From assembly GCF_050920415.1 (NCBI RefSeq), contig NZ_CP169309.1: a DNA stretch of 64,000 nt. One strand, 5' to 3'. A program made the position numbers and the translations under genes. The notes beneath the pieces were generated by a model. The model ran no database searches and was not told the origin of the DNA. It saw only the letters and a list, made by a program, of their open reading frames with translations. Shown one piece after another: positions 24,017-25,511 of the stretch. Position 1 is the first letter of the stretch. Each line of letters opens with the position of its first letter. The DNA comes from Escherichia coli (lineage in GTDB: Bacteria; Pseudomonadota; Gammaproteobacteria; Enterobacterales; Enterobacteriaceae).

Positions 24017-24682
24017 TCAAACAAAACCAGCCGCTTTCCGGCGTTCATATTCCTGTTTCAGCAACTCAATTGGCGTTGGTCCCGACGGGCGTTTGGGTGC
24101 TGCCAGTTGCCGCCGTACGGGCGGAACGCTCAGGCCGTTACCAACATGCTTTGCCCATTTCGTCAGCTGCCGTTCCGCAAGGCGTTTTAACTCCCCTTCG
24201 GTCATCTGGCGCTCAATCCCCTTTGAACGCATCTCGAGGCAAATGTGATACAGCACAGGCTGAGACCACGGATATTTATCGCTTCCGTCGTATCGCCAGG
24301 ACTCGTTGCGCCAGCGGCGGTACTCCTCCATCACAGCATCCACCGTCAGACCGAATGGATTGGCTCCGCTTTCCGAAATCAGCGCCACAAACTCAGCCAG
24401 GTCCGGAGGCCATGTTTCACCCGCCCGGCAGCGGTCCATGCACTGGCGGCAGACCAGCCGGATTTGCTGCTCAGTCATCGCGCCAATCTGTGCAATCCAG
24501 AGCTTCGAAGGTGCGACCCCGTTCTTCTGGGTCCAGCGGTTCGAATAAACCTCCCCCATGAGTTCCCACAGCTTCCAGGCCGTTTCCGTCTCTGATAAAT
24601 CCGTTTTCACGTTCCCACTGCTCACGTGCTGCCCGAATTTCCTGAACTGCCCGTGATGCGGTGCCACCTGGTGCTGCTGCAT
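24017..24682 (-). CDS. Replication protein P-like (helicase loader)
   Basis: Blocks resembling lambda gpP ([44 protein letters not shown]); AAGGGGG SD before ATG 24682. Confidence 0.65.
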
Positions 24683-25511
24683 GGTTTACCCCCTTGCTGA
24701 CAGGTTTAACCTGTGCCCTGACGTGATTTACGTGACGGGCGAATTTCTGCTCCCACTGAACCTGCGTGAACACTTTCCCCTCCGCTGCCCAGTAATCCCG
24801 GAAGGCGGCAAGTTCAGCAGGTGTAAATTCTGGTTCCGGCAGAGCCACTCCCCACAGTGCAGCCCGCCGTCGAAAATCCGGCGACGGATACCAGTCATCG
24901 GTCATCGGAAATTTTCCGATGGGCTCGCTCAGGACATCCAGGAATACAGGGGGCGCTGCCTGTAACGACAAAACTTCCTGCTCACTGGTCGGAGCACTCT
25001 CGCATGCGTTATGTGTGGGGTTTAGATCTTTGGGTTCCTTTGGGTTCCGTGATCCGTTTTTGGGTGTCTTTAATGGAAAATTTGGGTCTCTTTGGTTATT
25101 TTTCATGCAGCAAAGAGTCCCGTTTTTGGGGCTGTTTTGTGCTGAAACATAACCGTTTTCGGTACTGTTTTTATTAACAGCACCAATTTTACCCACCTTT
25201 AAAGACTCCCGTTTTTGGGTGTATTCAGGCTCGGCAACACTTTCTTCTACACCGATAAGTCGGTACACCACAATTTGCTTTGTTCTGCCTTTTCTCTCAC
25301 CGGTATCAACAATTACCCCAATCTCCATCAGGTGTCGTAAGCTGTCCTGCACAGTCTTTTTGTTCAGTTCCGTTACTTCTGCCAGTGCAGATACAGACGG
25401 GTATGCACACAAATCGGCACCGCACATATCAGCAAGCCAGGTCAATACTGACTTACTGGATGAACTGCCGGTTTTCACCTTTTTAGCCCATCGTAGTGCA
25501 TCGATACTCAT
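24471..25511 (-). CDS. Replication initiator O-like protein (N-terminal wHTH, C-terminal DnaT-like region)
   Basis: Start at [11 protein letters not shown] with AGGGG SD; iteron origin embedded in linker-coding region. Confidence 0.65.
25025..25225. promoter_or_regulatory. Replication origin iterons (TTTGGGT core, at least 6 copies) with adjacent AT-rich stretch
   Basis: ctttgggttc x2, ccgtttttgggtgt x3 and related copies inside the O-like gene. Confidence 0.55.

What the first reader, a model, noticed from the sequence alone, without database searches (positions are those of the whole stretch)
24017..25511. O-like and P-like replication genes overlap by ~210 nt; iteron origin inside O
The P-like ORF has a strong SD and ATG at 24682 while the O-like ORF runs to 24471, implying a ~70-codon out-of-frame overlap. 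TTTGGGT-core iterons and an AT-rich stretch lie in the linker-coding part of the O-like gene (25025-25225), as for lambda ori.
Basis: seen in the sequence. Interest (0 to 1): 0.35.

Follow-up and report, generated by a model that had tools for sequence, protein, structure and literature searches.

The report
Long overlap of prophage replication genes
In this E. coli-type prophage the gene for the replication initiator and the gene for the helicase loader share about 212 bases read in two different frames; the arrangement is conserved across enterobacterial prophages, and standard annotation hides it by starting the loader gene too late.

Summary
On the minus strand, an initiator ORF (ATG 25511 to stop 24471, 346 aa) and a lambda-P-type loader ORF (ATG 24682 to stop 24017, 221 aa) overlap by 212 nt, with P in the +1 frame of O.

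RefSeq/PGAP and phage records start P later (153 or 140 aa) and so remove the overlap. Comparative evidence contradicts those starts.
- Invariant P residues W39, W50, K53, N54, G55, P58 and W62 lie upstream of them.
- In every divergent enterobacterial locus scored (23 for the Shine-Dalgarno site, 22 for open frames), a strong Shine-Dalgarno site plus ATG sits 39-50 codons upstream of W50, and the initiator ORF runs 149-227 nt past it.
- Synonymous-codon shuffles give about 3% per locus for keeping each arrangement by chance.

Constraint is partitioned. The predicted disordered N-terminus of P lies over a conserved helix of the O tail. The disordered end of the O tail lies over the start of P's folded domain II.

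Three exact copies of CCCAAAAACGG, plus weaker copies, sit in a low-GC stretch in the linker-coding part of O. This fits an in-gene iteron origin.

"O-like" means function only: the protein has a DnaT-type C-terminal domain and is not in the lambda O family. The module is a known kind; the long conserved overlap is a new variant. Translation itself is untested.

The parts
24471..25511 (-). Replication initiator gene ('O-like', 346 aa). It has an N-terminal winged-HTH, a linker that carries the iterons, a DnaT-type domain and a C-terminal tail.
   Evidence: ORF. Pfam DnaT PF17948 at 64.9 bits over aa 201-267. HTH_36 is below its cutoff. PGAP models of homologues have the same 1041-nt length.
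24017..24682 (-). Lambda-P-type helicase loader gene, long form (221 aa).
   Evidence: Pfam Phage_lambda_P at 59.4 bits. Foldseek top hits are lambda P chains of 9oa1, probability 1.0, 195-197 aligned columns. Start supported.
24471..24682 (-). 212-nt dual-coding overlap. P is read in the +1 frame of O.
   Evidence: Shuffle tests. Polymorphism periodicity switches about 90 nt after the P ATG.
24688..24695 (-). Shine-Dalgarno site of P (AAGGGGGT), inside the O coding sequence, 5 nt before ATG 24682.
   Evidence: Duplex energy -11.8 kcal/mol. The equivalent site averages -9.7 over 23 loci, usually as GGA GGT encoding Gly-Gly in O.
24557..24559 (-). In-frame ATG of Met42. This is the rival or secondary start, used by PGAP for the 180-aa models in other genera.
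   Evidence: SD -4.2 kcal/mol here and -5.8 on average. It is CTG in L025. Invariant W39 and predicted helix 29-46 lie upstream of it.
24476..24478 (-). In-frame ATG of Met69. This is the RefSeq/PGAP start in E. coli (153-aa model, ATGACTGA 8-nt overlap).
   Evidence: SD -3.1 kcal/mol. Not a start codon in 7 of 23 loci.
24603..24653 (-). Conserved helix of the O tail (O aa 287-303, [17 protein letters not shown]). The same DNA encodes the predicted disordered N-terminus of P.
   Evidence: O-tail alignment. AlphaFold2 helix with pLDDT 76-85. Variable sites here follow the O frame.
24711..24911 (-). DnaT-type DNA-binding domain of the initiator (aa 201-267).
25201..25219 (-). Iteron copy 1 (minus strand CCCAAAAACGGGAGTCTTT).
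25112..25130 (-). Iteron copy 2 (minus strand CCCAAAAACGGGACTCTTT).
25046..25064 (-). Iteron copy 3 (minus strand CCCAAAAACGGATCACGGA).
25145..25163 (-). Weak iteron-like copy (68% identical to the reference copy).
25060..25210 (.). Low-GC zone (0.37-0.42), A-rich on the coding strand and interleaved with the iterons. Candidate unwinding region.

Best explanation
This is the replication module of a lambdoid (Rac/PPompW-like) prophage.

Components.
- The initiator (25511->24471) presumably binds iterons that lie inside its own linker-coding region (about 25046-25219).
- The lambda-P-type loader (24682->24017) presumably delivers host DnaB to the opened origin.

Expression. The loader is translated from its own strong Shine-Dalgarno site and ATG at 24682, 212 nt before the initiator's stop codon and in the +1 frame. 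The same DNA therefore encodes the last 70 residues of the initiator and the first 70 residues of the loader.

How the overlap is tolerated. Constraint is divided between the two frames.
- In the first ~90 nt the initiator frame is constrained (a conserved tail helix, SRAVQ.IRAARE.WER). There P encodes only a variable, disordered N-terminal segment, equivalent to lambda P domain I.
- In the remaining ~120 nt the P frame is constrained (start of folded domain II: AW.LW..M..IYSNRW..KNG..P..W). There the initiator encodes a disordered acidic tail whose recurrent motifs are by-products of the P codons.

Modularity. The tail plus P travels as one unit that recombines onto initiator bodies of several different families.

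Shown: the ORFs, conservation of the start signals, the open frames, the switch in codon-position variation, and the family and fold assignments.

Inferred: actual translation from ATG 24682, origin activity, DnaB loading, and any tail-P contact.
For: 1. Family and fold. Foldseek places the model on lambda P chains with 195-197 aligned columns. Window P aa 69 aligns to lambda P aa 80.

2. Architecture. The AlphaFold2 model has aa 1-27 disordered and helices from aa 29. This matches lambda P as described in PMC12661323: domain I, residues 1-29, a disordered lasso; domain II from about residue 30.

3. Residues upstream of the annotated starts are invariant in 46 homologues that are 41-90% identical to the window protein: W39, W50, K53, N54, G55, P58 and W62.

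4. Start signals.
- In 23 of 23 loci an ATG lies 39-50 codons upstream of W50.
- Mean SD energy is -9.7 kcal/mol at that ATG, -5.8 at the Met42 position and -4.1 at the Met69 position.
- The O codon that carries the AT of the ATG is CAT, AAT or GAT in 22 of 23 loci (TAT in L015). The O residue therefore varies (His, Asn, Asp or Tyr) while the ATG is kept.

5. The initiator ORF extends 149-227 nt past that ATG in every locus examined, always in the same relative frame.

6. Synonymous-codon shuffles.
- Chance that the O frame stays open given the P protein: 0.036 per locus (geometric mean). Observed open in 22 of 22.
- Chance that the P frame stays open given the O protein: 0.29 per locus. Observed open in 22 of 22.
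- Joint chance of an SD as strong as observed, the ATG, and an open frame up to W39, given the O protein: median 0.032 per locus. Observed in 21 of 21.

7. Polymorphism in 71 distinct close relatives.
- Variable sites by O codon position 1/2/3 are 2/4/9 over P aa 1-28 and 17/2/8 over P aa 29-70.
- The difference gives Fisher p = 0.01.
- Fewer sites vary in the overlap (18-22%) than in the P-only part (33%).

8. Modularity. Upstream initiators carry DnaT, Phage_rep_O, DUF1376 or no Pfam domain, yet all share the tail and the overlap. L021, a lambda-O-type initiator, matches the window initiator only over aa 265-346.

9. Origin. Other initiator genes of the set carry their own internal repeats.
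Against: - There is no direct evidence of translation, such as ribosome profiling or N-terminal peptides.
- RefSeq/PGAP annotates shorter forms: 153 aa in E. coli and 180-181 aa elsewhere.
- Met42 is conserved in at least 90% of homologues and could be a second start.
- P residues 1-28 show no amino-acid constraint of their own. Their coding status therefore rests on the conserved SD and ATG, the open frame, and the analogy to lambda P domain I.
- Sequence profiles did not extend the alignment to lambda P into the overlap. It begins at window aa 69, or at profile position 82. Homology of aa 29-68 to lambda P domain II therefore rests on fold prediction only.
- The loci are phylogenetically related, so the per-locus probabilities cannot simply be multiplied.
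- The iteron spacings (56-89 bp between the copies) are looser than in lambda.
Confidence: 0.8

Rival explanations
1. P starts at Met42 (ATG 24559). The overlap would then be 89 nt, and the upstream 41 codons would be an untranslated alternative frame that happens to stay open.
For: - Met42 is at least 90% conserved.
- PGAP chooses this start for the 180-181-aa models in Citrobacter, Klebsiella, Pectobacterium and others.
- P aa 1-28 show no amino-acid constraint of their own.
Against: - Invariant W39, and a predicted helix spanning aa 29-46, lie upstream of Met42.
- Its SD is weak: -4.2 kcal/mol here and -5.8 on average.
- The codon is CTG in L025.
- This reading does not explain the conserved strong SD plus ATG 39-50 codons upstream of W50, nor the open frame. 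Their joint chance is about 0.03 per locus, yet they are seen in 21 of 21 loci.
- Even if true, an 89-nt out-of-frame overlap remains.
Confidence: 0.12
2. P starts at Met69 (ATG 24478), as in RefSeq/PGAP. The overlap would be a trivial 8-nt ATGACTGA junction used for translational coupling.
For: - PGAP annotates it this way in E. coli genomes and in Rac-SA53 and pPE4.
- An ATGA-type junction is the classical arrangement. Lambda O/P have a 4-nt overlap (from my own knowledge, not tested here).
Against: - It would delete seven invariant residues and about 40 residues of the folded domain.
- Its SD is -3.1 kcal/mol.
- The codon is not a start in 7 of 23 loci: L020, L023, L026, L027, L029, L030 and L033.
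- Polymorphism already follows the P frame from about 90 nt after ATG 24682, well upstream of Met69.
Confidence: 0.03
3. The overlap serves programmed +1 ribosomal frameshifting, which would make an initiator-loader fusion protein.
For: - P lies in the +1 frame of O.
- A database protein, P0107, reads from the DnaT-domain end straight into P.
Against: - P0107 also runs on past the C-terminal end of P into unrelated sequence, which is typical of indel errors in an assembly.
- P has its own conserved SD and ATG.
- No shift-prone site was searched for and none is known here.
- There is no significant RNA structure around the P start (z = -0.81).
Confidence: 0.02

Closest known systems
Bacteriophage lambda O/P replication module with ori-lambda inside gene O
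   Same: - The initiator gene is followed directly by a P-type DnaB loader gene (Pfam PF06992).
- The loader model matches solved lambda P structures and predicts the same four-part layout, including a disordered N-terminal segment.
- Iterons with an internal CCC...GGG dyad, together with low-GC DNA, lie in the linker-coding middle of the initiator gene.
   Different: - The initiator is not a lambda O homologue. It has no PF04492 match and has a DnaT-type C-terminal domain.
- The genes overlap by 212 nt out of frame, whereas lambda has a 4-nt junction (my own knowledge).
- The iterons are fewer and more widely spaced, and the low-GC DNA is interspersed with them.
DopC/DopE, the chromosomal pair proposed to derive from phage O/P genes (Brezellec et al. 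2017, PMC5509034)
   Same: DopC is described there as an HTH_36 N-terminus plus a DnaT C-terminal motif, and DopE as a P-family protein. That is the same two-gene architecture as here.
   Different: - This pair sits in a prophage, next to cI/cro-like, YdaT-like and DUF1627 genes, and it has iterons. The paper reports no iterons at dopC.
- The paper's text contains no occurrence of 'overlap'.
- The HTH_36 match here is below the Pfam cutoff.
Rac-SA53 'ydaU/ydaV' and PPompW prophage replication genes
   Same: - Rac-SA53 and pPE4 are 93% identical, from about window 25031 downstream: DnaT domain, tail and P.
- PPompW is 96.5% identical over essentially the whole query, window 23903-25698.
   Different: - Those records annotate P as 153 or 140 aa, so no long overlap appears.
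- Rac-SA53 and pPE4 have a different N-terminal DNA-binding half. The mosaic breakpoint lies at the edge of the iteron region.
Long out-of-frame overlapping genes of viruses (overprinting; reviewed in PMC8227390)
   Same: - Two proteins are read from one DNA stretch.
- The disordered part of each protein lies over the constrained part of the other.
   Different: - Here only the two ends of two otherwise independent, functionally linked genes overlap.
- Both proteins belong to established families. Neither is an entirely new protein.

Membership tests
Lambda P-type helicase loader (Pfam PF06992) | Profile match above the curated cutoff | tested here: met
   59.4 bits against a cutoff of 26; aa 68-188 match profile positions 37-161.
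Lambda P-type helicase loader (Pfam PF06992) | Fold resembles solved lambda P | tested here: met
   Foldseek top hits are 9oa1_Z, 9oa1_Y and 9oa1_V: probability 1.0, E about 1e-5, 195-197 aligned columns. Domain III alone (8v9s) gives rmsd 1.2 A. The query is a predicted model with mean pLDDT 74.9.
Lambda P-type helicase loader (Pfam PF06992) | Four-part layout with a disordered N-terminal lasso before helical domain II | tested here: met
   AlphaFold2 predicts aa 1-27 with pLDDT below 50 and helices from aa 29. Lambda P domains are as given in PMC12661323. This holds only for the long form that starts at 24682.
Lambda P-type helicase loader (Pfam PF06992) | Binds and loads DnaB | not testable with these tools
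   Needs biochemistry.
Lambda O initiator family (Pfam PF04492 Phage_rep_O) | N-terminal Phage_rep_O domain | tested here: not met
   No PF04492 hit for the window protein. Only weak HTH_36, HTH_43 and HVO_A0114 matches below their cutoffs. L021 does have the domain, at 94.2 bits.
Lambda O initiator family (Pfam PF04492 Phage_rep_O) | Iteron array inside its own gene | tested here: met
   Three exact 11-mers plus weaker copies at 25046-25219. Binding by the protein was not tested.
DopC/DopE-like pair (HTH_36 + DnaT_C initiator, P-like partner) | DnaT C-terminal-type domain in the initiator | tested here: met
   PF17948 at 64.9 bits, aa 201-267.
DopC/DopE-like pair (HTH_36 + DnaT_C initiator, P-like partner) | HTH_36 N-terminal domain | tested here: inconclusive
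   18.5 bits against a cutoff of 25, E = 0.0017.
DopC/DopE-like pair (HTH_36 + DnaT_C initiator, P-like partner) | Domesticated chromosomal context without iterons | tested here: not met
   The context is a prophage, and iterons are present.
Genuine long overlapping gene pair | Both frames stay open beyond chance across divergent relatives | tested here: met
   Shuffle probabilities are 0.036 and 0.29 per locus, and both frames are open in 22 of 22 loci.
Genuine long overlapping gene pair | Conserved start signals for the downstream gene inside the upstream gene | tested here: met
   An SD averaging -9.7 kcal/mol plus an ATG in 23 of 23 loci. Joint chance is a median 0.032 per locus.
Genuine long overlapping gene pair | Both frames are translated | not testable with these tools
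   Needs ribosome profiling or proteomics.

The most novel reading that the evidence does not exclude
The overlap may act as a genetic lock. On this reading, the ~90 nt that encode the conserved C-terminal helix of the initiator also encode the disordered N-terminal 'lasso' of the loader. In lambda P that segment is proposed to contact the O-origin complex. The two docking partners would then be written in the same DNA and could not be separated by the recombination that shuffles initiator bodies in these prophages. The rest of the initiator tail would have arisen by read-through (overprinting) into the loader's folded domain.
Probability: 0.2. Interest if true: 0.6.

Novelty: new variant of a known kind. 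Interest (0 to 1): 0.4.

Why it matters
1. Annotation. The RefSeq/PGAP models of this loader (153 aa in E. coli, found in about a quarter of complete genomes; 180 aa elsewhere) probably lack the N-terminal lasso, and the 153-aa model also lacks part of domain II. This affects any structural or functional inference drawn from those models.

2. A natural case of same-strand dual coding. The 150-227-nt overlap between two interacting replication proteins is conserved in every divergent Enterobacterales locus examined. The partition of constraint is unusually clean: ordered over disordered, in both directions. That makes it useful for studying how overlaps arise and persist.

3. Mosaicism. The tail-plus-P unit attached to at least three different Pfam-defined initiator types, plus initiators with no Pfam match, marks where the specificity boundary of these replication modules lies.

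Tried and rejected
- RNA structure hiding the P start, which would allow coupling through unfolding by ribosomes translating O. The fold of 24630-24760 (minus strand) is not better than shuffles (z = -0.81), and the SD is mostly unpaired. Dropped.
- AlphaFold2 of the O tail joined to P by a GS linker, using 21 paired sequences. It predicts a helix at O aa 287-303 and a disordered remainder. The tool reports no contacts, so tail-P docking is neither supported nor refuted.
- Profile search of the P alignment against PDB sequences, to carry lambda P homology into the overlap. The alignment starts only at profile position 82.
- Independent amino-acid constraint on the second half of the O tail. 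The recurrent motifs (LD, EE[R/W], D[W/R/F]) are the direct by-products of the invariant P codons for W50, K53-N54-G55, W62 and I66-G67. I worked this out by hand from the sequence and the alignment. Only the open frame argues for selection there.
- Literature searches for a described long O/P overlap, or for DnaT-type lambdoid replication modules, found nothing. The held library is limited, so this is weak evidence of novelty.
- The viral-contig scan returned only close relatives, 96-98% identical. They were useful for the polymorphism analysis but not for adding diversity.

Full report
**What is in the sequence.** All relevant genes are on the minus strand. An ORF that is open from 25586 has its probable start at ATG 25511 and ends with TGA at 24471 (346 aa). 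A second ORF starts at ATG 24682 and ends at 24017 (221 aa). The two share 24471-24682, which is 212 nt, and the second is read one base downstream of the first frame. Five bases before ATG 24682 lies AAGGGGGT. Its predicted pairing with the 16S anti-SD is -11.8 kcal/mol, against a background of -2.6 +/- 2.6.

**What the genes are.**
- The upstream protein has weak N-terminal winged-helix matches and a clear DnaT DNA-binding domain: PF17948, 64.9 bits, aa 201-267.
- It has no lambda O (PF04492) match.
- The downstream protein is a lambda-P-family member: PF06992, 59.4 bits.
- Neighbouring genes are a YdaT-like gene upstream and a DUF1627 gene downstream, and cI/cro-like (DicA/DicC-type) regulators further upstream in homologous annotated regions.
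- The region is 96.5% identical to PPompW prophages of Stx-phage-bearing E. coli. From about 25031 downstream it is 93% identical to Rac-SA53 and to a phage deposited as an Actinobacillus phage.
- It occurs in 1255 of 5426 complete E. coli genomes.
- The architecture (HTH plus DnaT C-terminal motif, followed by a P-like protein) is the one described for the chromosomal DopC/DopE pair, which is thought to derive from phage O/P genes (PMC5509034).

**The annotation conflict.** RefSeq/PGAP starts the loader at ATG 24478. That gives 153 aa and an 8-nt ATGACTGA junction. PPompW records use a 140-aa model. In other genera PGAP mostly uses 180-181-aa models that start at the equivalent of Met42. Some GenBank records carry the 221-aa form.

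**Evidence on the start.**
1. Alignments of homologues from Klebsiella, Enterobacter, Salmonella, Citrobacter, Pectobacterium, Serratia and others (41-90% identical to the window protein) show invariant W39, W50, K53, N54, G55, P58 and W62. All lie upstream of Met69, and W39 lies upstream of Met42.
2. I collected 28 loci from one-genome-per-species contigs. In every locus where the conserved W..KNG and WPP[DS]L motifs could be located, an ATG lies 39-50 codons upstream of W50.
   - Among the 23 loci scored, that ATG is preceded by a strong SD, most often GGAGGT.
   - Mean pairing energy is -9.7 kcal/mol there, -5.8 at the Met42 position and -4.1 at the Met69 position.
   - Met42 is CTG in one locus, and Met69 is not a start codon in seven.
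3. In the initiator frame the SD is usually Gly-Gly, encoded specifically by GGA GGT. The codon that supplies the AT of the ATG is CAT, AAT or GAT in 22 of 23 loci (TAT in one). The amino acid changes while the ATG is kept, so the constraint belongs to the P start and not to the initiator protein.
4. With the initiator protein held fixed and synonymous codons resampled, the joint chance of an equally strong SD, the ATG, and an open P frame up to W39 is a median 0.032 per locus. The combination is present in 21 of 21 loci.

**Evidence that both frames are kept.**
- The initiator ORF runs 149-227 nt past the P ATG in all loci, always in the same relative frame.
- With the P protein held fixed, resampled synonymous codons leave the initiator frame open through the overlap with probability 0.036 per locus (geometric mean). 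It is open in 22 of 22.
- The reverse test gives 0.29 per locus, again open in 22 of 22.
- The loci are related, so these values cannot simply be multiplied. The sequences have nevertheless diverged to about 45-50% protein identity.
- Among 71 distinct close relatives, 70 keep the 221-codon ORF and the 212-nt overlap.

**How the overlap is shared.**
- In those close relatives, variable sites over P residues 1-28 fall mainly at initiator third positions: 2/4/9 for O positions 1/2/3.
- Over P residues 29-70 they fall mainly at P third positions, which are O position 1: 17/2/8.
- The switch lies about 90 nt after the ATG (Fisher p = 0.01).
- Overall variability is lower in the overlap (18-22% of sites) than in the P-only part (33%).
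- AlphaFold2 with 46 homologues predicts P residues 1-27 as disordered and helices from residue 29, with pLDDT 82-84 for residues 31-60.
- The model's best structural matches are lambda P chains of 9oa1, with 195-197 aligned columns. Window residue 69 aligns with lambda P residue 80.
- Lambda P is described as a disordered N-terminal lasso (domain I, residues 1-29), helical domains II and III, and a C-terminal lasso. Domain I is proposed to contact the O-origin complex (PMC12661323). The 221-aa form reproduces this layout. The 153-aa form would lack domain I and about 40 residues of domain II.
- On the initiator side, the tail contains a conserved helix (SRAVQ.IRAARE.WER, O residues 287-303), followed by a poorly conserved acidic end that is predicted to be disordered.
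- Each protein's disordered part therefore lies over the other's ordered part.
- The recurrent motifs in the last part of the initiator tail (LD, EE[R/W], D[W/R/F]) are forced by the invariant P codons. This is my own reading of the codons. Only the open frame, not the sequence, argues for function of that last segment.

**Modularity.** The initiators upstream of this tail-plus-P unit belong to different families: DnaT-domain proteins, a true lambda-O-type protein (L021, PF04492), a DUF1376 protein (L025), and proteins with no Pfam match. L021 matches the window initiator only over residues 265-346. The window itself has a mosaic breakpoint at about 25031, at the edge of the iteron region. This fits the classical picture for lambdoid phages, in which the N-terminal domain and iterons form one specificity unit and the initiator C-terminus with P forms another. 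That picture is established knowledge and was not tested here.

**The origin.**
- Three exact copies of CCCAAAAACGG lie at 25054-25064, 25120-25130 and 25209-25219 and nowhere else in the window.
- They extend to 19-mers. A weaker fourth copy and four TTTGGGT-core 13-mers are also present.
- Each core has a CCC...GGG dyad.
- GC falls to 0.37-0.42 over 25060-25210, with a strong A bias on the coding strand.
- Related initiator genes carry their own internal repeats. L021 has four lambda-like ATCCC.GAAAACAGGGA units, three of them at 22-bp spacing.
- An in-gene iteron origin is therefore the natural reading, but binding and firing are untested.
- The low-GC DNA is interleaved with the repeats and does not form a separate block.

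**Rivals.**
- A start at Met42 would still leave an 89-nt overlap. It explains neither W39 nor the conserved upstream SD and ATG. It may be a secondary start.
- A start at Met69 is contradicted by the conservation data.
- A frameshift fusion has no support. The one fused database protein also reads through the C-terminal end of P, as expected from assembly indels, and there is no significant RNA structure at the start.

**Verdict.** The module is of a known kind. The long, conserved, cleanly partitioned overlap, and the systematic truncation of the loader in reference annotation, are the new points. I found no description of either in the papers I could search. Confidence that P starts at 24682 is about 0.8.

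Noticed in passing
window 25483-25511 (minus strand): The YdaT-like gene (ATG 26034 to 25483) overlaps the start of the initiator gene (ATG 25511) by 29 nt. 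PGAP models of homologues show the same 29-nt overlap. This is a second, smaller out-of-frame overlap in the same operon.
   Followed up: no
L003 (PP818812.1, 'Actinobacillus phage vB_Apl-pPE4') and L018 (560-bp contig of Vibrio sinaloensis DSM 21326): A phage deposited with Actinobacillus pleuropneumoniae as host is 93% identical in DNA to this E. coli prophage module. A 560-bp 'Vibrio' contig encodes the same P at 76% identity. Both look like host misassignment or contamination rather than real host range.
   Followed up: no
Proteins P0107, P0028, P0106 and P0072: Database proteins fuse P to the downstream DUF1627 protein, to a DUF1376 domain, or to the end of the upstream DnaT-domain protein. 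P0107 also reads through the C-terminal end of P, which suggests indel errors in the assemblies rather than natural fusions.
   Followed up: partly
L021:2023-2137 (Klebsiella sp. BIGb0407): A lambda-O-type initiator (PF04492) carries four lambda-like iterons (ATCCC.GAAAACAGGGA, three at 22-bp spacing) and is joined to the same tail-plus-P overlap module as the window. It is a clean example of the mosaic junction.
   Followed up: partly
window 23982-24048 (minus strand): The mechanical ORF for the DUF1627 gene starts at ATG 24048 and would overlap the end of P by 32 nt. The ATG at 23982, preceded by GGGAGGAAATTTTA, matches the PGAP models, which start 34 nt after the P stop, and is the likelier start.
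   Followed up: partly
window 18000-32000: No complete E. coli genome in the collection matches this 14-kb stretch end to end. The best is 77% coverage at 94% identity. The prophage in the window is therefore a mosaic not represented as such in that collection.
   Followed up: no
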